Shown: piece by piece, positions 2,592 through 24,447 of the stretch
Layout: every line of letters begins with the position of its first letter
How positions within the stretch are numbered: the first letter of the stretch is position 1
Source: Bacilli bacterium
GTDB taxonomy: Bacteria > Bacillota_I > Bacilli_A > RF39 > UBA660
Assembly: GCA_016283935.1 (NCBI GenBank)
Contig: JAEENX010000013.1
Span: 97,759 to 161,758, forward strand
Length of the DNA: 64,000 bases
Direction of reading: 5' to 3'
Position numbers and translations under genes: made by a program
Notes under the pieces: model-generated
Seen by the model: only the letters and a program-made list of their open reading frames with translations
The model's database searches: none
What the model was told of the DNA's origin: nothing

Positions 2592-4166
2592 CTATTTAAC
2601 TTCTATTTTATCATCAAATAAACTTTCAGCTAATGAAACTGTATCAGCAGTTTCATTAACATACTTGTCTTCCTTCATGATTTTGTATACTTTATCTTTA
2701 TCAAAATTACTTAAAAGATCTTTCCAGTCTTTTTCAGTAATAAATATTAATTTATATTTAGTATTGTTTATTTCATTAAATTTATTTTCAATTTCATATA
2801 ATTTGTTATTACCTACTAATTTAACAGATTCGGATTTTGAAACTAATAGGATATTATTATCAGAAGCAACTTGAACCATTGTCTTCCCAACTAACAAATT
2901 AAACTCTTTAAGTTTCATATTATTAATTTCATCCATAAATTTAATCCATAAATCATGGCATGTTTGTTTGTAGTCTTTAGAAGCATTAACAAACGAATTG
3001 TTTATTCTAATATTAATAAATTCTTCACACATATTATAATGAGTATTTTTATCTATATATTGTTTTACATCTACTTGACACTTATCATCGATTATTTCCC
3101 GGGAAATAATTTGAGATATTTCGCGACTACTAAGTTTAGTTTCATCATCATTAATAAATGATATAAGTTCTAATTCTAGCATTAAGAAACCATTAGATGA
3201 ATAATTCAATTTACCAGATATATCATTTAATGATTCAATAAGTTTCTTTATTTGATTAAATGCTTGTGTTGATAAATTTCTTTTCTTCATATCAACTGCT
3301 TTATCTATATAACAATCCAACATTTTGTTGATAAGTATTTTTATATCAATACCTGTTAACTTTATATTGTTTAAACTATTAACAAGAGTATCAATATCAT
3401 TATGCAGTATATTGTTATATAGTTCATTAATCTCATCAGTTGTTACAGTACCATAATTGTTTTTGATTACATCAATATCAATTTTGTCAGAAGCTTTTGA
3501 TAGTTGATCTAAAATACTTAAAGCATCTCTCATACCGCCATCAGACAAATAAGATATTTCTTCTAAAGCTTCATCAGAAGCTTTAATTCCTTCAGACTTA
3601 CATACTTTCTTTAAATTATCCACTATTCTATTTCTATCTATTCGTCTAAAATCCAAACGTTGACATCTAGATAAAACTGTAATTGGAACATTTTGTACAT
3701 CTGTAGTTGCTAATATAAATACAACATATTCAGGAGGTTCTTCTAGAACCTTTAGAAAAGCATTCCATGCACTTTTTGAAAGCATATGTACTTCATCCAT
3801 AATATAAACTTTATATTTCATAAATGAAGGTGCAATCATAACCTCTTCTATAATATTTCTAATATTATCTACACCAGTATTAGAAGCAGCATCAATTTCT
3901 ACTATATCAGGAGAACTATTAAAGTTTTGGCATGCAGCACATTCACCGCAAGGAATTCCATCTTTCGGATTTTCACAATTAATAGTCTTAGCAAAAATTC
4001 TTGCACTACTTGTTTTACCTGTACCACGAGGCCCTGTAAATAAATAAGTATGAGCTAACTTATTTTCTATTACAGAATTTTTTAATAGTCTAACGATATG
4101 ATCTTGCCCCATTAATTCATCAAAATTACTAGGTCTATATTTTCTATATAAAACTTGATAGTCCAT
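2592..4166 (-). CDS. dnaX: DNA polymerase III subunit gamma/tau (DnaX)
   Basis: N-terminal YRKYRP..F.E..GQ, Walker A GPRGTGKTS, zinc module CGECAAC, SRC motif (LSRCQRL). Confidence 0.9.
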   Translation of the reverse strand: MDYQVLYRKYRPSNFDELMGQDHIVRLLKNSVIENKLAHTYLFTGPRGTGKTSSARIFAKTINCENPKDGIPCGECAACQNFNSSPDIVEIDAASNTGVDNIRNIIEEVMIAPSFMKYKVYIMDEVHMLSKSAWNAFLKVLEEPPEYVVFILATTDVQNVPITVLSRCQRLDFRRIDRNRIVDNLKKVCKSEGIKASDEALEEISYLSDGGMRDALSILDQLSKASDKIDIDVIKNNYGTVTTDEINELYNNILHNDIDTLVNSLNNIKLTGIDIKILINKMLDCYIDKAVDMKKRNLSTQAFNQIKKLIESLNDISGKLNYSSNGFLMLELELISFINDDETKLSSREISQIISREIIDDKCQVDVKQYIDKNTHYNMCEEFINIRINNSFVNASKDYKQTCHDLWIKFMDEINNMKLKEFNLLVGKTMVQVASDNNILLVSKSESVKLVGNNKLYEIENKFNEINNTKYKLIFITEKDWKDLLSNFDKDKVYKIMKEDKYVNETADTVSLAESLFDDKIEVK

Positions 4167-4241: not shown

Positions 4242-4655
4242 TCATCTTACATTTTCTTTAAAAAAAGTACTAAGCATGTTTTTATATGTTTCACGTGAAA
4301 CATCATCTTCAACTTGATTAATAATAGTAGAATTATATTTGTTTTTATTATCTCTTTCTAATAAAAAATATATATTATCTACCCTACTTGCTTTAGCAAC
4401 TTCTAGGCACATATCACATGGATATAAGCTAACATAAAGATCACATCCATCTAATCTCCAATCATTTAGATTCTTTTCAGCTTCTCTAATAGCTATTATT
4501 TCAGCATGATTAGTTACATCCGGTGTATTTAATCTATCATTATGTCCCCTACCTATAATTTTATTATTTTTAACCACTATAGCTCCTATTGGAATGTCTT
4601 TATTATCATAAGATATTTGTGCTTCTTTTATTATTTCCTCTATATATTCATTCAT
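4242..4655 (-). CDS. tadA: tRNA-specific adenosine deaminase TadA
   Basis: CDA-fold motifs HAEIIAIREA and PCDMC. The ORF-track start (4733) would read through the SRP RNA gene. The ATG at 4653-4655 (MNEYIEE) has a GAGGT RBS and gives a 137-aa protein. Confidence 0.85.
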   Translation of the reverse strand: MNEYIEEIIKEAQISYDNKDIPIGAIVVKNNKIIGRGHNDRLNTPDVTNHAEIIAIREAEKNLNDWRLDGCDLYVSLYPCDMCLEVAKASRVDNIYFLLERDNKNKYNSTIINQVEDDVSRETYKNMLSTFFKENVR

Positions 4656-4672
4656 AATTACCTCAATAAAAA

Positions 4673-4749
4673 AAATGCGCACACGATTAGTGAATGTTAT
4701 GGCTGCTGTGTTCCCACTCTGACCAGGTTCCAATATAACCGTTGCGCAA
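4673..4749 (-). ncRNA. ffs: Signal recognition particle RNA. This is the minimal 4.5S/scRNA type of about 77 nt.
   Basis: Minus-strand sequence UGCGCAACGGUUAUAUUGGAACCUGGUCAGAGUGGGAACACAGCAGCCAUAACAUUCACUAAUCGUGUGCGCA followed by U8. It contains the domain IV signature UGGUCAG...GGAA tetraloop...AGCAGCC, closed by a GCGCA/UGCGC terminal stem. Location between tadA and dnaX matches scr placement in Firmicutes. Confidence 0.8.
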
Positions 4750-4752
4750 AAA

Positions 4753-4781
4753 TATTATAACATATCCTATAAATTAATCAA
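4753..4781 (-). promoter_or_regulatory. Putative sigma-A promoter of ffs
   Basis: On the minus strand, TTGATT (plus 4776-4781), a 16-nt spacer, then TATAAT (plus 4753-4758), ending about 6 nt before the SRP RNA 5' stem. Confidence 0.4.
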
Positions 4782-4803
4782 ATAATTAATTTTCATAGTA
4801 TAA

Positions 4804-5192
4804 ATGTTTCACGTGAAACATAAGAAGTAATAAATATTTAAATTAAGGATAAATAATATGTAAATAATTAGATTTAAAAATAATAAATATATATCATAAA
4901 CAAATATTAATGTTTCACGTGAAACATTATAAAAATATAAATATTAAAAAAGAAAATAATAGGTCACTTTTCAAAATATAAAAGAGCATTAATTATCAAA
5001 AATAATTCAGTTTAAATGTATAAAATAGGGAAAATCAATAAAAAAATGTTTCATGTGAAACATTACAAAAATATAAATATAAAAAACAAAGTAATAGGGT
5101 ACTTTTTTTGAAATAAAAAGCATTAAATATCAAATGAACCAGCTTAAAAGTAAAGAATAGGGAATTGATAAAAGATGTTTCACGTGAAACAT
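4804..5192. repeat. Array of a perfect 18-bp palindrome inside diverged tandem units of about 105-135 bp
   Basis: ATGTTTCACGTGAAACAT at 4804-4821, 4910-4927 and 5175-5192; a CATGTG variant at 5046-5063. The AT-rich units 4928-5045 and 5064-5174 are about 75% identical. A fifth copy lies at 4286-4303 inside the tadA 3' end. Confidence 0.75.
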
Positions 5193-5218
5193 AAAAAAAG
5201 AAGCTATTAAGCTTCTTC
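5193..5218 (-). terminator. Rho-independent terminator of gyrA. The stop codon sits in the loop.
   Basis: Minus strand GAAGAAGC-UUAAUA-GCUUCUUU followed by UUUUUUU. Confidence 0.55.
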
Positions 5219-7840
5219 TTTATTTTCATTTACAATTTTGTCAAATGAAGTAGGGGACTCATTAGAATTTTCTGATGTTGATAACTCAGAATCTTCTTCA
5301 TCATCTTTGCTTGTTAAAGAAATTGTTGAAACATATTGATCTTCTTTAAGATTAATTAATCTTACACCTTGAGTTACACGTCCTAATTGAGAAATAGATT
5401 CAACTGTAATTCTAATAATCATACCAGATTCAGTAATAATTAATAAATCTAAATCATCAGTAACATTTTTGAATGCTACCATTGGACCGTTCTTTTCAGT
5501 AATATTAATTGCTGTTACTCCTTTAGATCCACGCTTAGTTAATCTATATTCTGATAATTTAGTTTTCTTTCCATAACCATTCTTAGTTACTATTAAGATA
5601 TTATCATCATCATGAGCTACATCCATACCTAAGCATTCAGCTCCATCAAGGTTAATACCTTTAACACCTGACGCAGTTCTACCCATAGGTCTTACATCAT
5701 TTTCGTTAAATACAACCATTCTACCAGCAGATGAACCTAAACAAACGTTATATGTACCATCTGTTAATAAAACATCTATTAATTCATCATTATCTTTTAA
5801 TGTAATAGCAATCTTACCAGTTTTTCTTATATTATCAAATTCTTCAATTGGAGTTTTCTTAATTAAACCTTGTTTAGTTGCAAAGATTAAGAATCTAGCA
5901 TCGTTATCACGAGAAACTCTAATAACTGAACTTATTTTTTCATCTTTTTCTAATTGAAGTAGGTTAATAATAGGTAATCCTTTAGATTGTCTACTATATT
6001 CAGGAATTTCATAACCTTTTATACGATATGTTCTTCCTTTATTAGTAAAGAACATAATATGATCATGAGTTGAAGCATTAATCAAGAATTTAACGTAGTC
6101 TTCTTCGTTAGTTGACATACCTTTTACACCAACGCCACCTCTGTGTTGAGTTCTATATGTATCAGTAGTTAATCTCTTGATATAACCCTTATCAGTTAAT
6201 GAAATCATAATATTTTGTTCTGGTATTAATGATTCATCTTCAATGAAATCAATAGCTGTCATATCAATGTTAGTACGTCTTTCATCACCGTATTTACGTT
6301 TGATTTCAAGCATTTCATCTTTAATAATACCTAATACTCTTGATTCATTAGCTAAGATATCATGATAATCAGCAATCTTTTCAGCTAATTCTTTTAATTC
6401 ATTTTCAATTGCATCTCTTTCTAATCCAGTTAACTTACCTAATCTCATATTTAAGATATCAGTTGCTTGGATATCGCTTAATGCAAATCTAGACATTAAT
6501 TCAGCTTTAGCAATTTCTTCAGTAGCACTATTTCTAATAATATGTACAACTTCATCAATATGATCTAAAGCAATACGTCTACCTTCTAAAATATGAACTC
6601 TATCTTCAGCTTTGCCTAATATATATTTAGTTCTTCTAATAATAACTTCTTTTTGATAATCAATATATTTAGAAATAATTGATTTCAATCCTAAAGTACG
6701 AGGAACACCATTATCAAGCATTAATAAGATAATTCCATAATTTTTTTGGAAATCTGTATGTTTATATAAATTATTTAAAATAACTTGAGCATTTGCATCT
6801 CTTTTTAATGTAATAGTGATTTTAACACCATTTTTTAAATCTGTATGATAATCAGATATACCATCTAATACTTTTGAATGAACAAGTTCTGCAACTTTAT
6901 TCTTTAATTCTAATGTATTTGTTCCATATGGAACTTCAGTAATAACAATTTGTTGTTTATTATTTTCTTCTATAATTTCAGCTCTAGATCTGATAGTAAT
7001 AGAACCTCTACCAGTTTCGTAAGCTTCAATAATACCTTTATTACCTAATATAACACCGCCAGTAGGGAAGTCAGGACCTTTAATATATTCCATTAATCCT
7101 CTAGTATCAATTTCAGGATTATCAATATATGCAACACATCCATCAATAACTTCACCTAAATTATGAGGTGGAATATTAGTTGCCATACCAACCGCAATAC
7201 CCATAGTACCATTTACTAAAATGTTAGGGAAGCGGGAAGGTAATACAGATGGTTCTTTCTTAGTAAAATCGAAGTTATCATCCATATTTACTGTATCTTT
7301 ATCTATATCTCTTAACATTTCAAGAGATAATTTAGATAATCTTGATTCAGTATAACGCATGGCTGCTGCGCCATCACCTTCGATATTACCAAAGTTACCA
7401 TGGCCATCAACCATTAAATATCTTTGGTTAAAATCTTGTGCCATTCTAACCATTGCTTCATAAATTGAACTATCACCATGTGGATGGTAATTACCCATAA
7501 CGTAACCAACTGTTGTAGCTGATTTTCTATGAGGTTTATCAGGATATAAACCAGATTCATTCATTGCCCATAAAATACGTCTATTAACAGGTTTTAAACC
7601 ATCTCTTAAGTCTGGTAAAGCTCTAGCAGTAATAACAGACATAGAATATTCTAAGAATGAAGTACCAACTTCATCTACAATGTTATTTTCTTCTAATGAA
7701 TCTCTTTCATGGAAATATCCATTAAATTCACTATTATGAATATCTAATGCATTATTTTCTTCATTGTTGATATCTGTTTGGTTTTCAACAGTTTCTTCTA
7801 CTTCTTCAGTAGTTTCAATATTCTTATTTTCTTCTTCCAC
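5207..7840 (-). CDS. gyrA: DNA gyrase subunit A
   Basis: [17 protein letters not shown], active-site region and C-terminal beta-pinwheel repeats. The N-terminus is unusually acidic and the C-terminal tail is Glu/Asp/Ser-rich. The true start within the first ~45 codons is uncertain. Confidence 0.9.
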
Positions 7841-10988: not shown

Positions 10989-11438
10989 TTAGGCCTCTTT
11001 TTTTCTTAATAAAAACTCAAATCTACTAGCTTTTAATATTTGATTCTTTAATGACCAAATTGATTCTTTAAAATCTATTTTATTTCCATTTGTTAATTCT
11101 ATAACAGAACAATTATTTTTATCATTAGAATATATATTATTTATAGATTTTAAATTCAACCATGATACATTATTTACTCTAGGAGAACAAGTAGGGAAGA
11201 ATACTATATTATTCTTACTTTTAACTAAAATAGGAGTTTTATACATATTTCCAGTCATATTTCTATAATAATTAACCCTAATATCATATGAACTACCATC
11301 TATTTCACAATTATACTTAATAATATTATTTGGTTTATTGTTGATAACTATCATTTTATCAACTTCATATACTACTGAATTTTTATTACCCATAGGTAAT
11401 ATAGCCAATGTATTATCAGTAATATTATACTTATTCAT
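10989..11438 (-). CDS. ComK-family protein (putative competence transcription factor)
   Basis: 149 aa with ...AILP..., ...IDGSSYDIR..., KTPILV and IVFFPTCSPR...W. These parallel the ComK hallmarks as I recall them: VLP, FFGSSY, KPPIMV and IFLFPTLSS..W. Assigned from memory of ComK only. Confidence 0.55.
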   Translation of the reverse strand: MNKYNITDNTLAILPMGNKNSVVYEVDKMIVINNKPNNIIKYNCEIDGSSYDIRVNYYRNMTGNMYKTPILVKSKNNIVFFPTCSPRVNNVSWLNLKSINNIYSNDKNNCSVIELTNGNKIDFKESIWSLKNQILKASRFEFLLRKKEA

Positions 11439-12715: not shown

Positions 12716-12724
12716 TTATCCACA
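12716..12724 (+). promoter_or_regulatory. Consensus DnaA box (TTATCCACA) in the dnaA-dnaN intergenic region
   Basis: Exact 9-mer at 12716-12724 within an AT-rich spacer. Confidence 0.55.
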
Positions 12725-12791: not shown

Positions 12792-14201
12792 TTAAATCTT
12801 ATCTTTAATTTCTTTAATTTCATTCTTTAATTGTTCTGAAGTTTTTAGGTCTTCAGTAATTTTTTCTCTAGCATGTATAACAGTAGCATGGTCTCTATTA
12901 AAACTTAATCCTATTCTTTCTACTGTTTCATCAGTAGTCATAGTACATAAATATATAGCAACTTGTCTAGCTTTATTAATTTCAGCTTTTCTTTTCTTAG
13001 ATTTTAATGTATCAACAGTAACATTATAGTAGTCTGCAACGGCTTTCTTTATCTTTTCAATACTATTTTCAGTGTAATTATTATTATCTATATCATCTTT
13101 TAAGTACTGTTGAGCAAATGCTAGATCTACCACTTCTGGTTGATACATCATAATCATTACATACAATCTATTAATAATACCTTCTAGATGTCTAACATCT
13201 GATTGGCTATTATTAGCAATATATTCTAATACTTCAGGCTTTATTCTATTGGCAGTTTCATGTCCTGCCATCTTATTATTAAGTATTTTAAGTTTTAGAA
13301 CAAAGTCTGGTGGGGATATTTGAGCTGTCATTCCCCAAGCAAAACGTGTTTTTAATCTATCCTCGAACTTTTGTAAGTCATCAGGACTTGTATCTGAACT
13401 AATAATTATTTGTTTTTGGAAGTTTCTAAATGCTTCAAATGTATTAAAGAACTCTTCCTGAGTCTTATCTGCAGATGCTAAGAATTGAATATCATCAATT
13501 ATTAATACATCTTTATCATAATATTTTCGTTTAAATGCTTCTAATAATGTTGTATTAGTGTTTTTATTTGAAAATATTTCTTGATAATCCTCTTTAAATT
13601 GTTTTGAACTAATATATAAAACTCTTTTATTATATTTTCTTTTAATTTCGTTACCTATAGCATGCATTAAATGTGTTTTACCTAAACCACTTTTACCATA
13701 AAGGAATAATGGATTATATAAAACACCAGGTTTATCAGCTACTGCCTTAGCACAAGTGTAAGCTATACCATTTTGTTCACCAACTACGAAATTCTCAAAA
13801 GTATAATTTGGATTCAAATTATCATTATAATCTGGAAAAACCTCATCTACTACGTTCATAATTGGTTGGTTTTCAACAATATTAGTAGATTCTAAAGGAA
13901 GTTGACTCATATAAGTATTATCTTCTTCCTTCTTCTTTGGTAATTCTAGTTCAGTTTGAGAAATTACTAATTCATATAAGTAATCTTTTTTAGTAACTTC
14001 TTTAATTTTTTCACTTATTAGATCGTCAAAATGATTTAATAAATGATTTTTCATAAATTCATTTTTTACTTGTATTTTAAAAGTATTATTATTATCTATA
14101 TCTACAAGGGTAGTATCTTTAAAGTATATATTATAAATCATTGTTGAAACTGATGACTCAATTCTAGATAGAATTTGAGCCCATAACTCATTGTTGTTCA
14201 T
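12792..14201 (-). CDS. dnaA: Chromosomal replication initiator DnaA
   Basis: AAA+ Walker A GKSGLGKTHL and the C-terminal DnaA-box-binding HTH (ETVERIGLSFNRDHATVIHA). The likely start is the MNNNELWAQIL Met at 14199-14201, not the upstream M of the ORF track. Confidence 0.9.
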   Translation of the reverse strand: MNNNELWAQILSRIESSVSTMIYNIYFKDTTLVDIDNNNTFKIQVKNEFMKNHLLNHFDDLISEKIKEVTKKDYLYELVISQTELELPKKKEEDNTYMSQLPLESTNIVENQPIMNVVDEVFPDYNDNLNPNYTFENFVVGEQNGIAYTCAKAVADKPGVLYNPLFLYGKSGLGKTHLMHAIGNEIKRKYNKRVLYISSKQFKEDYQEIFSNKNTNTTLLEAFKRKYYDKDVLIIDDIQFLASADKTQEEFFNTFEAFRNFQKQIIISSDTSPDDLQKFEDRLKTRFAWGMTAQISPPDFVLKLKILNNKMAGHETANRIKPEVLEYIANNSQSDVRHLEGIINRLYVMIMMYQPEVVDLAFAQQYLKDDIDNNNYTENSIEKIKKAVADYYNVTVDTLKSKKRKAEINKARQVAIYLCTMTTDETVERIGLSFNRDHATVIHAREKITEDLKTSEQLKNEIKEIKDKI

Positions 14202-14231
14202 ACTTCTCACCGCCCTGTTTTTATAAATCAA

Positions 14232-14520
14232 TTTTTATCTTCACTAACAAACTAAGTTTAAAACAAACATGTTAATAAAGTAAATAATAATTTTTCAATA
14301 TTAAGTTTTAAACCAGTTTTCAACATAGTTTTCCACAGTGTCAGGACCTATAATAACGCACTTTTTTATAGTTTTCAACATATTTCAACAAATTGTGTTT
14401 AAACATATTAACTATTTAACATTTTAGTTTTCAACTATTAACGTTGAAAAGTTTATAATGCGAAATTTAACGTTTTTTCCTTATTTTTAGTTGACTTAGT
14501 TTTTTTTATATAATATAATA
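14232..14520. promoter_or_regulatory. oriC-like region with a cluster of degenerate DnaA boxes. It also holds the rpmH promoter (TTGACT-17-TATAAT near 14489-14517).
   Basis: TTTTCCACA at 14329-14337. GTTTTCAAC-type repeats at 14316-14325, 14371-14380, 14381-14390 and 14427-14436, with inverted GTTGAAAAG at 14442-14451. AT-rich spacers. Confidence 0.6.
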
Positions 14521-14555
14521 GCGTTGCTAATGAGATGCGGAGGTAGGTGAAAACT

Positions 14556-14678
14556 ATGAAAAGAACATTTCAACCAAATAATCGTAAAAAAGCTAAGAAA
14601 CATGGATTCTTTGCAAGAAAAAATTCAAAAATACTAAAAACTAGAAGAGCAAAAGGAAGAAAAGTACTTTCTAAATAG
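14556..14678 (+). CDS. rpmH: 50S ribosomal protein L34
   Basis: [40 protein letters not shown] (40 aa). The ORF track missed it, presumably for size. Confidence 0.9.
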
Positions 14679-14681
14679 ATT

Positions 14682-14706
14682 AAGTCACGGATATGTGACT
14701 TTTTTT
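14682..14706 (+). terminator. Hairpin plus T-run between rpmH and rnpA (partial terminator/attenuator)
   Basis: AGTCACGGATATGTGACT followed by TTTTTTT. Confidence 0.5.
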
Positions 14707-14730
14707 ATATGATAAGAAGGGAGCTGTAAT

Positions 14731-18051: not shown

Positions 18052-18840
18052 ATGGAATTTAAATTAACATCTAATAAATTCATGAATATAGAGAGTAATG
18101 AAGTTAATAATAAATTAAAAGAATTATATGAACTATGTTTGAATGAATCATTAAAAGGTAATAAAGTTGCATTTTATTATGAAAATCTTAATAATGATAT
18201 ATTTTCATATAATCAAGATATATGTTTTTATGCTGCAAGTTCTATAAAAATACTTGTATGTACAATGATATTAAGATTAGCTGATGAAAATAAGATTGAT
18301 TTAAATAAAGATATATTAGTAACTATGGCTGATTTAAAACAAGATACAGGAGTTATTAAATATCAAAAAGAAGATACTTATTATTCAATAAAGAAATTAA
18401 TAGAATTATGTATTATGGAAAGTGATAATACTGCATATTTAAAATTAGTAGATTTAGTAGATAGAGATTCACTTGAAGAATATGGTAAATCCTTAGGTGC
18501 ATTACATACAATGGAAGGAAAAGACAATTTTGGATTAATAAATTGTTCAGATATGATAATTTATTGGAAAGATGTAATGAACTATTTAAAAAATGGAAAA
18601 TATGCAGATGATTACAAACATTATTTATTATATCCATCTGTTAAATTTATAAATAGAGATAATTTTATAAAAAAATATGGTTCATGGGATATTGCATATC
18701 ATGAGGCTGGATATATGGATGTTGAAAATCCTTATTATTTAATTGTATTAACTCAATTAAATAAAATGGATTATAAAGAAGAATTTATAAATAAAGTTGC
18801 AAATATATTAGATGAAATAAACAATATAATAGGAAAGTAA
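18052..18840 (+). CDS. Class-A beta-lactamase-fold serine hydrolase. It has no signal peptide, so it is probably cytoplasmic.
   Basis: SxxK (AASSIK), SDN (ESDNTAY) and a KTG-like KYG motif in the expected order and spacing. Confidence 0.5.
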   Translation: MEFKLTSNKFMNIESNEVNNKLKELYELCLNESLKGNKVAFYYENLNNDIFSYNQDICFYAASSIKILVCTMILRLADENKIDLNKDILVTMADLKQDTGVIKYQKEDTYYSIKKLIELCIMESDNTAYLKLVDLVDRDSLEEYGKSLGALHTMEGKDNFGLINCSDMIIYWKDVMNYLKNGKYADDYKHYLLYPSVKFINRDNFIKKYGSWDIAYHEAGYMDVENPYYLIVLTQLNKMDYKEEFINKVANILDEINNIIGK

Positions 18841-20711: not shown

Positions 20712-21413
20712 ATGAATATAGAAGAATTTATTAAAGCATGTAATGAATTAAATATATCATTAGACGATAAAACATTATCTAATTTAAATATATATAAAGA
20801 ATATTTACAAGAATATAATGCTCATACTAATTTAACTACTATTACAGAAGATGAAGAAATATATTTAAAACATTTCTATGATTCTTTAACAATAGTTAAA
20901 GCAATAGATTTAAATAAAGTATCTAGTCTTTTAGATGTAGGAACAGGTGCTGGATTTCCAGGAATGGTATTAAAAATTGTATTTCCACATTTAAATGTAA
21001 CTTTAATAGATTCTAATAATAAAAAGACTACATTCTTATCAAATTTAAAAGAAAAGATTGGATTAAATAATTTAACTATAATAAATGAAAGATCTGAAGA
21101 CTATGCTCATAAACATATAGATGAATATGATGTAGTTACTTCAAGAGCAGTAGCTAATTTAAGAGTATTAACTGAACTATGTTTACCAATGGTTAAAGTA
21201 GGAGGTAAATTTATACCTTTAAAAGCTACAGTTGAAGAAGAAATCAAAGAAGCTGATAAAATTATTAGTGTATTAAATGGTAAGTTATCAAAAAAAATAA
21301 CTTTTAATCTTCCTAAAGAAGATTCATTAAGAAATATATTAGTAATAGATAAATTAAAAAGTAATCCTAAAGGATATCCAAGAAATTATGGTAAAATAAA
21401 AAAAGGTAACTAG
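20712..21413 (+). CDS. rsmG: 16S rRNA (guanine527-N7)-methyltransferase RsmG
   Basis: SAM-binding LDVGTGAGFPG. Conserved mnmG-rsmG pair. Confidence 0.9.
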   Translation: MNIEEFIKACNELNISLDDKTLSNLNIYKEYLQEYNAHTNLTTITEDEEIYLKHFYDSLTIVKAIDLNKVSSLLDVGTGAGFPGMVLKIVFPHLNVTLIDSNNKKTTFLSNLKEKIGLNNLTIINERSEDYAHKHIDEYDVVTSRAVANLRVLTELCLPMVKVGGKFIPLKATVEEEIKEADKIISVLNGKLSKKITFNLPKEDSLRNILVIDKLKSNPKGYPRNYGKIKKGN

Positions 21414-21463
21414 TAATAGTTATTTTTTTTATGTATACTTATAATAGAATATAGGAGTTTAAT

Positions 21464-22006
21464 ATGGAAAATAAATATTTGCCTGAACAAGAAAAGACTG
21501 CAAAACCGGTTGAAAAACATTATAAAGAATTGGAATCTGTTTCTACTAGTTCATTAATAGAAAATTTTATAAATAATAGTGATGAAGAAGATATAAAAAG
21601 AATTAATGAAAAAGTTGAAGCAGAAATCAAAGAAGTTAATTCAAAACAAAATAATGAAACCGAAAATGATAGTTCAGTATCACAAGATAATAAGATTTCA
21701 TCAACAGATAATAGTATATTAACAGTAAATATCTTGTTTTTTATTCTTACAATTATATCTTTAATTGTACAAACATTTAATAATAATCCAATTGTTCTAG
21801 CAGTATCAGGAATATTGTTACTTTCACTTGTGGTTTCTTCTATTATTACAGCATGTACTTGTACAAACCAATCATATAAAACTATAGGAATGATTATTAC
21901 ATTATTATGTCTTATATTTTTCATATACTTTTGTGCAGTAATAATAGGTCATATGGTAGGTGAATTTTTGTCTGGATGTGGAAGTATGTTACGTGGATGT
22001 GAATAG
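21464..22006 (+). CDS. Hypothetical membrane protein (acidic/Ser-rich N-terminus, C-terminal TM helices, Cys-rich end)
   Basis: ORF with hydrophobic C-terminal half. No recognisable family. Confidence 0.4.
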   Translation: MENKYLPEQEKTAKPVEKHYKELESVSTSSLIENFINNSDEEDIKRINEKVEAEIKEVNSKQNNETENDSSVSQDNKISSTDNSILTVNILFFILTIISLIVQTFNNNPIVLAVSGILLLSLVVSSIITACTCTNQSYKTIGMIITLLCLIFFIYFCAVIIGHMVGEFLSGCGSMLRGCE

Positions 22007-22014
22007 GTGATTAT

Positions 22015-22701
22015 ATGATAATAAATAAAATTAATTTTCCAATATATGGAATAATGATAGTATCTTCTATATTAGCTGGAATGATATATATACTATTAAA
22101 TATAAAAAATCTTATAAAAAAAGATAGAAGACTATTATTATATTTTATATTGGTATTTCCATTTACTATTATATTTGGAATATATTTTACTATGATTACA
22201 TCAGGTGATTTTAGTCTAACTAGAATTGGATTATCATCATATGGTGGATTAATAGGATTAATTCTTTCAGCAATTATATTTAATTTTATAGTTCCAAATA
22301 ATAATAAAATATTAAAATATACAATTATATCTTTACCATTGATATATGGAATATCAAAATTAGGATGTTTTTTTGCAGGATGTTGTTATGGTATTCCTTA
22401 TAATGGTCCATTAAATGTTTCATATCCATTCAATGATGTTTATAATGTATTACCGATACAATTAATTGAAACTGTTACATTTATAATTGCATTTATAATT
22501 TTAAATAAGTATAAAAATAATAGTAATATTATTTATATAACTATTGTAGTAGGAGCAGTTTTAAAAGGATTGCTAGATTTTTTTAGAGATTCTCATATTA
22601 ATCAAATAATATCAGCAAACCAAATATTTTCCATTTTATTAATAGTATTAGTATGTGTAATATTTATTGTAAATAAAAAGAAAAAAATAAAAAGAAACTA
22701 A
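22015..22701 (+). CDS. Prolipoprotein diacylglyceryl transferase (Lgt)-family protein. It is short, at 228 aa.
   Basis: Multi-TM. IGLSSYGGLIGLILSAIIF and KLGCFFAGCCYG correspond to Lgt motifs (..HGGLIG.. and ..GRWGNF.N.E..G) as recalled. Confidence 0.5.
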   Translation: MIINKINFPIYGIMIVSSILAGMIYILLNIKNLIKKDRRLLLYFILVFPFTIIFGIYFTMITSGDFSLTRIGLSSYGGLIGLILSAIIFNFIVPNNNKILKYTIISLPLIYGISKLGCFFAGCCYGIPYNGPLNVSYPFNDVYNVLPIQLIETVTFIIAFIILNKYKNNSNIIYITIVVGAVLKGLLDFFRDSHINQIISANQIFSILLIVLVCVIFIVNKKKKIKRN

Positions 22702-22739
22702 AAAAGTTTCTTTTTTATTTTATACTATAATTGGTGAGA

Positions 22740-23207
22740 TATATGAAATACTGTAAGAATTGTGGCAAAGAATTACAAGAAAAGAACAACTTTTGTACTT
22801 TATGTGGTACTCCAGTATCTGAAAATGCAACAACTATAAAACCAAATAATGTTGTCTTAGAAACTGTTGAAGACAAAAAGAAAGGTAATGTATTTGGAAT
22901 AATAGCATTAATATTACATTTTGGAACTCCTTTTCTTACATCATTATTAAGTCCTATTATGAATACAATAGAAAAAAGTAATTATAGTGCTATATCTGGT
23001 ATTGTAGCAAGTCTAATAGGAGTTGGATATTTATCTTCTTGGGTTATCATGATAGTAGGTAGAGTGAAATATCCTAAGAATGTATTATGTAAGGTAACAA
23101 TGTGGATATTTATTATTACAGCTATCATGGAAGTAGTTGGATTAATATTAATCATGGCTTTCTGTTATATTACTTGTACTAATATGGACTTCTCAGGTTG
23201 TTATTAA
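22740..23207 (+). CDS. Zinc-ribbon membrane protein, hypothetical
   Basis: N-terminal CKNCG..(x)..CTLCG zinc ribbon, then 3-4 TM helices. Confidence 0.45.
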   Translation, partial: YMKYCKNCGKELQEKNNFCTLCGTPVSENATTIKPNNVVLETVEDKKKGNVFGIIALILHFGTPFLTSLLSPIMNTIEKSNYSAISGIVASLIGVGYLSSWVIMIVGRVKYPKNVLCKVTMWIFIITAIMEVVGLILIMAFCYITCTNMDFSGCY

Positions 23208-23301
23208 AATAGATAAGATATTAGAAAACTCTAATATCTTTTTATATTGAAAAAAAAGCCACATAAATATATAATTATATATAGAATAGGAGAGGGTTAT
23301 C

Positions 23302-24447
23302 ATGAAGATGGAAGCACAAATAAGAATGATTCCAGTAGATCAAATTATCCCAAATAGATTTCAACCAAGACTAGAATTTGATCAAGAAGCTTTAAATACA
23401 TTAGCTAATTCCATCAAACAACATGGTATTATCCAACCTTTAGTACTTAGAAGAGTAGCAGATAAATATGAAATAATAGCAGGTGAAAGAAGATTTAAAG
23501 CATCTCAAATGTGTGGAATGATGCAAGTTCCAGCAATTATAACTGACTTAGATGATAATGAATCTGCAGAAGTTGCTATCATTGAAAATACACAAAGAAG
23601 AGAATTATCTGCAATTGAAGAAGCACAAAGTTATAAAAAATTATTAGATAGAAAATACTTAACACAAGAACAATTAGCTCAAAGATTAGGAACTTCTCAA
23701 TCTAACATAGCTAATAAGATTAGATTATTACAATTAGATAAAGCTGTACAAGAAGCTTTAATGAAAAATCAAATTTCTGAAAGACATGCTAGATCATTAC
23801 TAAGAGTACAAGATCCTAAGAAACAAGTTGAATTATTAAATAGAGTAATTCAAGAAAGAATAAAAGTAAGAGATTTAGAAAAAGAAATAGATAAAATATT
23901 AGGATTATATGATAATCAAAAAGCTGCAGTAGGTGGAATTAACATTGGTAAGGGTGATATAGATATTGAAACTCTTACTCAAACAGCTCAAGATATAACT
24001 CCTACATATGCAACTGATATTCCTATATATCAACATCAAACTAATAAAGAAGAAAAGAAACCAAAAAATAATACATTATTTGGTAATAAATTAGAAGATG
24101 AAGCAGCAAATATGGATTCATCTCTAGGATTTGGATTTAATCCATTCCAAACTCAAGCAGTAAATGGAGTTGGAGTTGGAGATGACTATGATCTTCTTGA
24201 ACTTGAAGATAATGATGATTCAGAAGAAACACAAGATGATACTCCTACACAAACTCCAACTGTTGTTAAACAAGTAGTACAAGATGAAAAATATGAAACA
24301 GCAGATGATGTAATAGCTGGAATAAAGAGAATCATGGATGCTTGTAAAGAATGCAATTTGGTAGTTTCTTCAGAAGAATTTAACTTTGATGAAGAATATC
24401 AATTTGTTATTAGAATACCAAGAGATGAAGAAGATACTAAGAAATAG
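23302..24447 (+). CDS. parB: ParB/Spo0J (or Noc) family partition protein. No ParA is adjacent.
   Basis: ParB box IIAGERRFKAS and an HTH (LTQEQLAQRLGTSQSNIANKIRLL). Long acidic C-terminal extension. Confidence 0.8.
   Translation: MKMEAQIRMIPVDQIIPNRFQPRLEFDQEALNTLANSIKQHGIIQPLVLRRVADKYEIIAGERRFKASQMCGMMQVPAIITDLDDNESAEVAIIENTQRRELSAIEEAQSYKKLLDRKYLTQEQLAQRLGTSQSNIANKIRLLQLDKAVQEALMKNQISERHARSLLRVQDPKKQVELLNRVIQERIKVRDLEKEIDKILGLYDNQKAAVGGINIGKGDIDIETLTQTAQDITPTYATDIPIYQHQTNKEEKKPKNNTLFGNKLEDEAANMDSSLGFGFNPFQTQAVNGVGVGDDYDLLELEDNDDSEETQDDTPTQTPTVVKQVVQDEKYETADDVIAGIKRIMDACKECNLVVSSEEFNFDEEYQFVIRIPRDEEDTKK

What the first reader, a model, noticed from the sequence alone, without database searches (positions are those of the whole stretch)
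4286..5192. Five copies of a perfect 18-bp palindrome (ATGTTTCACGTGAAACAT) in ~130-bp tandem units between gyrA and the SRP RNA gene
Exact copies lie at 4804, 4910 and 5175, with a one-base CATGTG variant at 5046 and another exact copy inside the tadA C-terminal codons (VSRETYK) at 4286. Those in the intergenic region sit in two diverged tandem units of about 130 bp (4928-5045 and 5064-5174, about 75% identical). The copy at 4804 lies about 23 bp upstream of the ffs -35. The motif resembles no operator I can name (not cre, Rex, CIRCE, Cheo, NrdR, Fur or PerR). The spacers are homologous to one another, so this is not CRISPR. It could be an uncharacterised regulator's operator array, a repeat family that nucleates a nucleoid protein, or a small mobile/repetitive element.
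Basis: seen in the sequence. Interest (0 to 1): 0.6.

Follow-up and report, generated by a model that had tools for sequence, protein, structure and literature searches.

The report
Origin-proximal array of parS centromere sites
The five palindromes are textbook parS sites, the bacterial chromosome's "centromere" where the ParB protein loads next to the replication origin.

Summary
In detail: four exact copies and one single-mismatch copy of ATGTTTCACGTGAAACAT lie at the stated coordinates (0.02 expected by chance). The inner 16 bp is letter for letter the consensus parS site, and the whole 18-mer lies inside the duplex co-crystallised with ParB. The sites lie about 9 kb from the GC-skew switch at dnaA, between gyrA and ffs, with one more in the last codons of tadA. 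In 80 related uncultured gut and rumen Bacilli genomes, all 383 parS-type sites lie within 2.5 kb downstream of gyrA and none in the other 1.34 Mb. Seventy-four of 80 loci have at least two sites (median 5, maximum 12). Repeat periods range from 37 to 136 bp, so only the palindrome is conserved. This is a chromosomal centromere enlarged by local tandem duplication, a new member of a known kind. One gap remains: the only ParB-family gene in the window is a Noc orthologue with NBS-type specificity residues and no membrane helix. The cognate ParB was not found within about 85 kb around the origin. In many relatives, perfect Noc-binding sites alternate with parS inside the same repeat unit. I found no description of that arrangement, and it is the only modestly novel aspect.

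The parts
4286..4303 (.). parS site 1, an exact 18-bp palindrome inside the C-terminal codons of tadA (..DVSRETYK..)
   Evidence: The same site is in the same place in the 96%-GyrA relative L003. Many relatives have a parS just after tadA.
4804..4821 (.). parS site 2 (exact), 22 bp upstream of the ffs -35 hexamer
4910..4927 (.). parS site 3 (exact), the start of the tandem array
5046..5063 (.). parS site 4, a one-mismatch variant (TGTTTCATGTGAAACA). The same variant recurs three times in L003.
5175..5192 (.). parS site 5 (exact), immediately after the gyrA terminator hairpin
4909..5199 (.). Tandem duplication that carries sites 3-5: period about 136 bp, 2.2 copies, 80% matches. The spacers are about 15% G+C.
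4668..4753 (-). ffs (small SRP RNA), the downstream neighbour of the array. Its promoter-like site is at 4781-4754.
4242..4655 (-). tadA (tRNA adenosine deaminase, 137 aa), which hosts parS site 1
5194..7840 (-). gyrA (5207-7840) and its terminator-like hairpin (5221-5194). This is the conserved upstream anchor of the array in all relatives.
12792..14730 (-). dnaA (12792-14231) and the dnaA-rnpA intergenic region, where GC skew changes sign. This is the inferred oriC, about 9 kb from the array.
23302..24447 (+). The only ParB-family gene in the window: a Noc orthologue (381 aa) with NBS-type specificity residues Q-K-x-R. It has no N-terminal membrane helix and a long linker. It is not predicted to be the parS binder.
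3093..3108 (.). A perfect Noc-binding site TATTTCCCGGGAAATA inside dnaX, encoding IISREII with the rare codons TCC and CGG. It is a companion element, not part of the parS set.

Best explanation
The five palindromes are parS sites and together form the chromosome's centromere-like locus. A ParB (Spo0J-type) CTP-dependent clamp is expected to nucleate on each 16-bp core and then slide onto flanking DNA. This builds a partition complex next to oriC that loads SMC condensin and marks the origin for segregation. The several copies arose by local tandem duplication of a parS-containing unit. They are kept because multiple loading sites at this position, just downstream of gyrA, are advantageous in this lineage. 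Shown here: identity to the parS consensus, confinement to one origin-proximal locus, and conservation of site and position (but not spacers) across 80 related species. Inferred: the existence of the cognate ParB elsewhere in the genome, its binding and spreading, and SMC loading.
For: (1) Sequence. The inner 16 bp is TGTTTCACGTGAAACA, stated as the consensus parS in Jalal et al. 2020 and used as such in PMC10197239; 27 papers hold the string, all about ParB/parS. The full 18-mer lies inside the crystallised duplex GATGTTTCACGTGAAACATC. (2) Non-random occurrence. There are 5 sites against 0.02 expected, and no further match with up to 3 mismatches in 64 kb. (3) Origin proximity. GC skew flips between dnaA and rnpA at about 14 kb, and the gene order is dnaA-dnaN-recF-gyrB-gyrA, so the array is about 9 kb from the origin. 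Reviews state that parS sites lie near the origin and number from 1 to about 23. (4) Conservation. In 80 relatives with GyrA 66-96% identical, all 383 parS-type sites lie within -10 to +2500 bp of the gyrA stop and none in the remaining 1.34 Mb. 74 of 80 loci have at least 2 sites, with median 5 and maximum 12. Flanking A(-1) and T(+1) are 99% conserved, which explains the 18-mer. (5) Only the palindrome is conserved. Array periods differ between species, from 37 to 136 bp. The closest relative, L003, has 7 sites in units of about 104 bp. (6) Two discrete specificities. In the family TNTTTCNCGNGAAANA there are 213 pure parS, 114 pure NBS and only 7 hybrids. This implies a parS-specific reader distinct from the NBS reader. 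(7) No Rfam family other than ffs is found in the region.
Against: No canonical ParB (R173/G201 type) and no ParA were found in the window. None was found in 10-kb extensions on both sides, covering about -11 to +74 kb in window coordinates. None was found within 10 kb of gyrA in the 80 relatives. The only ParB-family protein nearby carries Noc-type residues. The ancestral soj-spo0J pair is missing after noc in three species examined. Binding, spreading and SMC loading were not and cannot be tested here.
Confidence: 0.85

Rival explanations
1. The sites are centromere-like, but there is no separate ParB. The MTS-less Noc orthologue (23302-24447) is the only ParB-family protein and reads both parS and NBS, or has taken over the ParB role.
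For: It is the only ParB-family gene in about 85 kb around oriC. soj-spo0J is absent from the ancestral position after noc. The protein lacks the membrane-targeting helix that defines Noc function, which makes it ParB-like in architecture. parS and NBS are tightly paired in many relatives, with a median start-to-start distance of 49 bp.
Against: Q133, K139 and R161 (equivalent to Q173, K179 and R201) do not vary in the family, and these residues confer NBS rather than parS preference. The sites fall into two discrete classes with almost no hybrids, 213 and 114 against 7. That pattern is what two separate readers would maintain. The remaining roughly 95% of the genome was not searched, so absence of ParB is not shown.
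Confidence: 0.08
2. The palindromes are operators of an unrelated transcription factor (a CACGTG-core reader) that regulates ffs and/or read-through from gyrA.
For: One copy sits 22 bp upstream of the ffs -35, and another abuts the gyrA terminator.
Against: The match to parS is exact over 16-18 bp. Arrays of up to 12 copies, some lying between tadA and dnaX or inside tadA, do not fit promoter-operator geometry. The motif is absent from all other promoters in 64 kb and in 1.34 Mb of relatives' DNA.
Confidence: 0.03
3. The palindromes belong to a selfish or neutral repeat (MITE-like or minisatellite) with no function of their own.
For: The tandem units are diverged (80% matches) and copy number differs between close relatives.
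Against: There are no copies elsewhere. The units are unrelated between species, yet the palindrome and its genomic position do not change across GyrA divergence down to 66%. The copy inside tadA is kept with the rare codon CGT.
Confidence: 0.02

Closest known systems
Chromosomal parS / ParB (Spo0J) system of Bacillus subtilis and other bacteria (Lin and Grossman 1998, from my own knowledge; Livny et al. 2007, cited)
   Same: The same 16-bp palindrome (consensus TGTTTCACGTGAAACA), an origin-proximal location, several copies per genome, and some copies inside coding sequence.
   Different: In B. subtilis the roughly 10 sites are spread over hundreds of kb and mostly lie in genes (from my own knowledge). 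Here they are packed into less than 1 kb of intergenic DNA as tandem units at a fixed locus after gyrA. The parB gene is not next to noc or near oriC.
Tandem-repeat plasmid centromeres such as F-plasmid sopC (12 repeats of 43 bp, each with a SopB-binding inverted repeat; repeat details from my own knowledge, sopC named)
   Same: Head-to-tail units that each carry one palindromic ParB-type binding site. Relatives show 7-12 copies with periods of 37-84 bp.
   Different: This array is chromosomal, uses the universal chromosomal parS sequence, and its units are longer (106-136 bp) and diverged in this window.
Clustered chromosomal parS arrays near oriC, reaching 20-23 sites in Streptomyces coelicolor and Listeria innocua
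   Same: Multiple parS sites clustered near the origin, with copy number varying between species.
   Different: Those published clusters are reported only as sites near the origin, and their spacing was not examined here. Here the spacing is tens to about 130 bp and arose by tandem duplication.
Noc-NBS nucleoid occlusion system of Firmicutes (Wu et al. 2009, from my own knowledge; Jalal et al. 2020 and 2021)
   Same: A paralogous palindrome that differs at two positions per half-site. A Noc orthologue and perfect NBS sites are present in the window and in relatives.
   Different: The five sites in the finding have G1/A6 (parS), not A1/C6 (NBS). They are not Noc sites.

Membership tests
chromosomal parS (ParB nucleation site) | 16-bp inverted repeat matching TGTTNCACGTGAAACA | tested here: met
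   Four sites match 16/16 and one matches 15/16. The consensus is quoted from Jalal et al. 2020 and PMC10197239.
chromosomal parS (ParB nucleation site) | Located near the replication origin | tested here: met
   The GC-skew sign change is at about 14 kb, next to dnaA. The array is at 4.3-5.2 kb, after dnaA-dnaN-recF-gyrB-gyrA.
chromosomal parS (ParB nucleation site) | Rare and confined to the origin region rather than dispersed | tested here: met
   No other match with up to 3 mismatches in 64 kb. None in the extensions L083, L084 and L087. 383 of 383 sites in relatives lie within 2.5 kb after gyrA. The rest of the genome was not available.
chromosomal parS (ParB nucleation site) | Sequence conserved in related genomes independently of flanking DNA | tested here: met
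   74 of 80 related loci carry at least 2 sites. The periods and spacers differ, while the 18-mer flanks A/T are 99% conserved.
chromosomal parS (ParB nucleation site) | Cognate ParB with parS-type specificity residues encoded in the genome | tested here: inconclusive
   Not found in about 85 kb around oriC or in the 80 loci. The only paralogue present is Noc-type. The rest of the genome could not be searched.
chromosomal parS (ParB nucleation site) | ParB binding, CTP-dependent spreading and SMC loading at the site | not testable with these tools
   This needs biochemistry, ChIP or Hi-C.
Noc-binding site (NBS) | A at position 1 and C at position 6 of each half-site (TATTTCCCGGGAAATA) | tested here: not met
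   All five sites have G1/A6 and show at least 4 mismatches to NBS. A true NBS exists separately at 3093-3108.
CRISPR array | Identical repeats separated by unique, unrelated spacers, with a regular short period | tested here: not met
   The spacers are homologous to one another, with 80% matches. The repeat is a perfect palindrome of 18 bp with a period of 106-136 bp.
MITE or other small mobile repeat | Dispersed copies of the whole unit elsewhere in the genome | tested here: not met
   The palindrome, and therefore the unit, occurs only at this locus in the window and in relatives.

The most novel reading that the evidence does not exclude
In this uncultured Bacilli lineage the centromere may be a composite, fast-evolving tandem array fixed downstream of gyrA. 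It would co-load two paralogous CTP clamps: ParB on parS, and an NBS-specific Noc orthologue that lacks the membrane helix. NBS sites are about 15-fold enriched in the centromere zone, and in many species they alternate with parS inside the same repeat unit. This would mean that the Noc paralogue here acts at the origin (in segregation, SMC loading or replication control) rather than in classical nucleoid occlusion. It could represent either the pre-membrane-helix intermediate of Noc evolution or a secondary reversion. In the extreme version there is no separate ParB at all.
Probability: 0.2. Interest if true: 0.6.

Novelty: new member of a known kind. Interest (0 to 1): 0.3.

Why it matters
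For this window, the finding simply annotates the chromosome's centromere and confirms where the origin is. That helps in orienting MAG contigs and in interpreting metagenomic Hi-C. The wider pattern is of moderate interest to specialists. An entire uncultured gut and rumen Bacilli lineage keeps its parS sites at one fixed intergenic locus after gyrA and renews them by tandem duplication. It often interleaves them with Noc-binding sites, while its Noc orthologue lacks the membrane helix. This gives a natural test case for two open questions quoted in the ParABS review: why parS sites cluster, and why their number varies. It also bears on how Noc evolved from ParB.

Tried and rejected
Pfam scans of the window ORFs found no ParB, ParA or SMC. 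Extending the window by 10 kb on each side through the look-up of encoding contigs also found none; two first attempts failed because I used the wrong start codons. The neighbourhoods of two distant Noc orthologues have no soj-spo0J.

(2) The idea that NBS arrays replaced parS in some species (L004, L005, L028, L082). I rejected it because those loci carry the symmetric parS variant TGTTCCACGTGGAACA.

(3) Degenerate NBS remnants inside the window's own repeat units. There are none; the best non-parS match has 6 mismatches.

(4) An RNA gene in the repeat units. Rfam at E<=1 gives only ffs plus three sub-threshold chance hits over the gyrA terminator.

(5) A DnaA-box cluster at the array. None is present. 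The only perfect boxes are at 12716 (dnaA-dnaN spacer) and 28180.

(6) CRISPR, MITE and operator readings. See the membership tests.

(7) Literature searches for interleaved parS/NBS arrays found no description. The library is incomplete, so this is not proof of novelty.

Full report
**Observation.** The pattern ATGTTTCACGTGAAACAT occurs exactly at 4286, 4804, 4910 and 5175, and with one mismatch (CATGTG) at 5046. No further match with up to 3 mismatches exists in the 64-kb window. Shuffles give 0.02 matches on average. Tandem Repeats Finder reports one array at 4909-5199 with period 136, 2.2 copies and 80% matches. A direct alignment of the units shows the homologous spacers. The spacers are extremely A+T-rich, about 15% G+C once the palindromes are removed.

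**Context.** On the minus strand the window carries holB, recR, ybaB, dnaX (2592-4166) and tadA (4242-4655). These are followed by ffs (4668-4753, Rfam RF00169, 55 bits), the array, gyrA (5207-7840) and gyrB. Then come recF, a ComK-family gene, dnaN and dnaA (12792-14231). On the plus strand it carries rnpA, yidC, jag, mnmE, gidA and gidB. GC skew changes sign sharply between dnaA and rnpA, near 14 kb. A perfect DnaA box lies in the dnaA-dnaN spacer. The array is therefore about 9 kb from the replication origin. The ffs promoter-like site TTGATT-16-TATAAT lies at 4781-4754, 22 bp from the palindrome at 4804. The palindrome at 5175 directly follows the gyrA terminator hairpin.

**Identity.** The inner 16 bp, TGTTTCACGTGAAACA, is the consensus parS, the nucleation site of the chromosomal partition protein ParB/Spo0J. 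A full-text search for the string returns 27 papers, and all of those listed concern ParB/parS. PMC10197239 uses the same 16-mer to find parS in gut bacteria. Its option of a repeat that nucleates a nucleoid protein is right.

**Conservation.** A GyrA-based scan of one genome per species returned 80 loci. All are from uncultured gut or rumen 'Bacilli/Tenericutes' MAGs with about 25-30% G+C and GyrA 66-96% identical. One named member is placed by NCBI in Bacilli incertae sedis.

- With up to 1 mismatch to the consensus, 337 of 338 parS sites lie within 2.5 kb downstream of the gyrA stop.
- A few loci that seemed to lack parS carry the symmetric variant TGTTCCACGTGGAACA.
- Allowing T or C at that position gives 383 sites, all in the zone from -10 to +2500 bp (173 kb) and none in the remaining 1.34 Mb.
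- 74 of 80 loci have at least two sites, with a median of 5 and a maximum of 12.
- The arrays lie between gyrA and ffs and/or between tadA and dnaX.
- Repeat periods differ widely between species: 37-39, 53, 63, 74, 84, 106, 117 and about 130 bp.
- The nearest relative, L003 (96% GyrA identity), has seven sites in units of about 104 bp, including the same copy in the tadA tail.
- Contigs from two other samples carry this window's array at 100% and 99.8% identity.
- In this lineage the bases flanking perfect sites are A(-1) and T(+1) in 99% of cases. This explains why the palindrome reads as 18 bp.

Only the palindrome and its genomic position are conserved, and the spacers are not. That is the signature of a protein-binding site renewed by local duplication. 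It does not fit an RNA, a coding element or a mobile element. Rfam finds nothing but ffs in the region.

**Mechanism.** From established knowledge of the system (reviewed in PMC7333895), ParB nucleates on parS and spreads to neighbouring DNA. It also recruits SMC at origin-proximal parS sites. Numbers of sites per genome range from one to about 23, and some Firmicutes have ParB-parS and SMC without ParA. The most likely function here is therefore a multi-site ParB loading platform next to oriC. Sequence identity, location and conservation are shown. ParB binding, spreading and SMC loading are inferred.

**The gap.** The only ParB-family gene in the window (23302-24447, 381 aa; Pfam ParB_N + HTH_ParB) is not a canonical ParB.

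- Its best solved relatives are Noc proteins (E 5e-59) rather than Spo0J (2e-46).
- It scores 278 bits on the NCBIfam Noc model, below the 315-bit cut-off.
- In two relatives examined it sits directly after gidB, the classical noc position; in this window three genes separate it from gidB.
- Its HTH reads GTSQSNIANKIRLLQL...SERHAR. At the four specificity positions defined by Jalal et al. (ParB R-T-A-G, Noc Q-K-K-R) this gives Q-K-Q-R.
- Q, K and R do not vary in 24 family members.

The protein is thus predicted to read NBS, not parS. Perfect NBS sites do exist. One lies in dnaX at 3093-3108, and relatives have 144. Within the family TNTTTCNCGNGAAANA there are 213 pure parS, 114 pure NBS and only 7 hybrids. 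Two sharply separate classes argue for two separate readers, and therefore for a ParB encoded elsewhere.

I could not find that ParB. There is none in the window, none in 10-kb extensions on both sides, and none within 10 kb of gyrA in the 80 relatives. soj-spo0J does not follow noc in three species. The rest of the genome was out of reach with these tools. This is the main uncertainty, and it is the basis of the rival that the Noc orthologue itself serves the array. I rate that rival at about 0.08.

**Side observations in relatives.** In 42 of 80 loci, NBS sites lie in the same post-gyrA zone as parS. In many loci (for example L022, L060, L061, L053 and L027) the two alternate within one repeat unit. 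The median start-to-start distance between adjacent parS and NBS is 49 bp and the minimum is 24 bp. NBS density is about 15 times higher in this zone than elsewhere (95 in 173 kb against 49 in 1.34 Mb).

The lineage's Noc orthologues all start MKME... at the position where the crystallised NocNΔ26 truncation of Geobacillus Noc begins. They therefore lack the 10-residue N-terminal membrane-targeting helix that is required for nucleoid occlusion in B. subtilis. They also share a long linker with the conserved motif LFFNNLENE..NMD..L.FGFNPF. I found no paper describing interleaved parS/NBS arrays, though the library is incomplete. This window's own array contains no NBS or NBS remnant. These points belong to the lineage rather than to the finding as given.

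**Verdict.** The finding is real and conserved but ordinary in kind. It is the chromosomal parS centromere, expanded by tandem duplication, in an uncultured low-G+C Bacilli genome, and so a new member of a known kind. Interest is low to moderate (0.3), and comes from the lineage-wide fixed position, the rapid array turnover, the pairing with NBS, and the unlocated ParB.

Noticed in passing
window 23302-24447 (+): A Noc orthologue (best PDB hits Noc; NBS-type residues Q-K-x-R; C-terminus EEYQFVIRIPR like B. subtilis Noc, the latter compared from memory). [quoted passage not shown] About 120 homologues of 360-400 aa share this architecture. It could be a pre-membrane-helix stage of Noc evolution or a relocated membrane anchor.
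   Followed up: partly
window 3093-3108 (inside dnaX); same site in L003, L004, L005, L007, L019, L049, L071, L080: A perfect Noc-binding site TATTTCCCGGGAAATA encodes IISREII with the rare codons TCC and CGG in a 25% G+C genome. The DNA is identical in nine genomes (eight related loci plus the window), although the surrounding DnaX peptide is poorly conserved. This points to selection on the DNA rather than on the protein.
   Followed up: partly
L022 12478-13400; L060 12670-13150; L061 12485-12830; L053 2695-2935; L027 12479-12770 (relatives, just after gyrA): Perfect NBS and parS palindromes alternate inside the same tandem repeat unit (periods 56-117 bp). 42 of 80 loci have both site types in the centromere zone, and NBS density there is about 15 times that of the flanks.
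   Followed up: partly
L004 3166-3580; L005 12544-13046; L028; L082; L012: These species use a symmetric parS variant, TGTTCCACGTGGAACA, in which both half-sites changed T to C at position 4. Most relatives use TGTTTCACGTGAAACA. This may reflect co-evolution with their ParB, or a permissive position.
   Followed up: partly
L006 12302 and 12344: Two copies of the hybrid palindrome TATTTCACGTGAAATA (NBS-like at position 1, parS-like at position 6) lie next to one true NBS, with no canonical parS. This is a possible specificity intermediate in that species. The record is mislabelled 'archaeon'.
   Followed up: no
window 10989-11438 (-): A ComK-family gene sits between dnaN and recF, inside the otherwise canonical dnaA-dnaN-recF-gyrB-gyrA block. 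It is conserved in relatives (L086, L088 and the contig).
   Followed up: no
window 20712-23302; L088 9237-11143: soj-spo0J, which follows noc in B. subtilis-type genomes, is absent. In this window three genes (an unknown 180-aa protein, lgt, and a zinc-ribbon protein) are inserted between gidB and the noc orthologue. In relatives noc directly follows gidB.
   Followed up: partly
L088 16495-17007: A SpoIIR-family (PF09551) gene lies near the origin in a related MAG. This is unexpected for a lineage labelled 'Tenericutes/Mollicutes' in several records.
   Followed up: no
window 18052-18840 (+): A class A beta-lactamase-family ORF (PF13354) is inserted between mnmE and gidA in the otherwise conserved origin-side operon. 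Relatives have a different 187-aa gene, or nothing, at this position.
   Followed up: no
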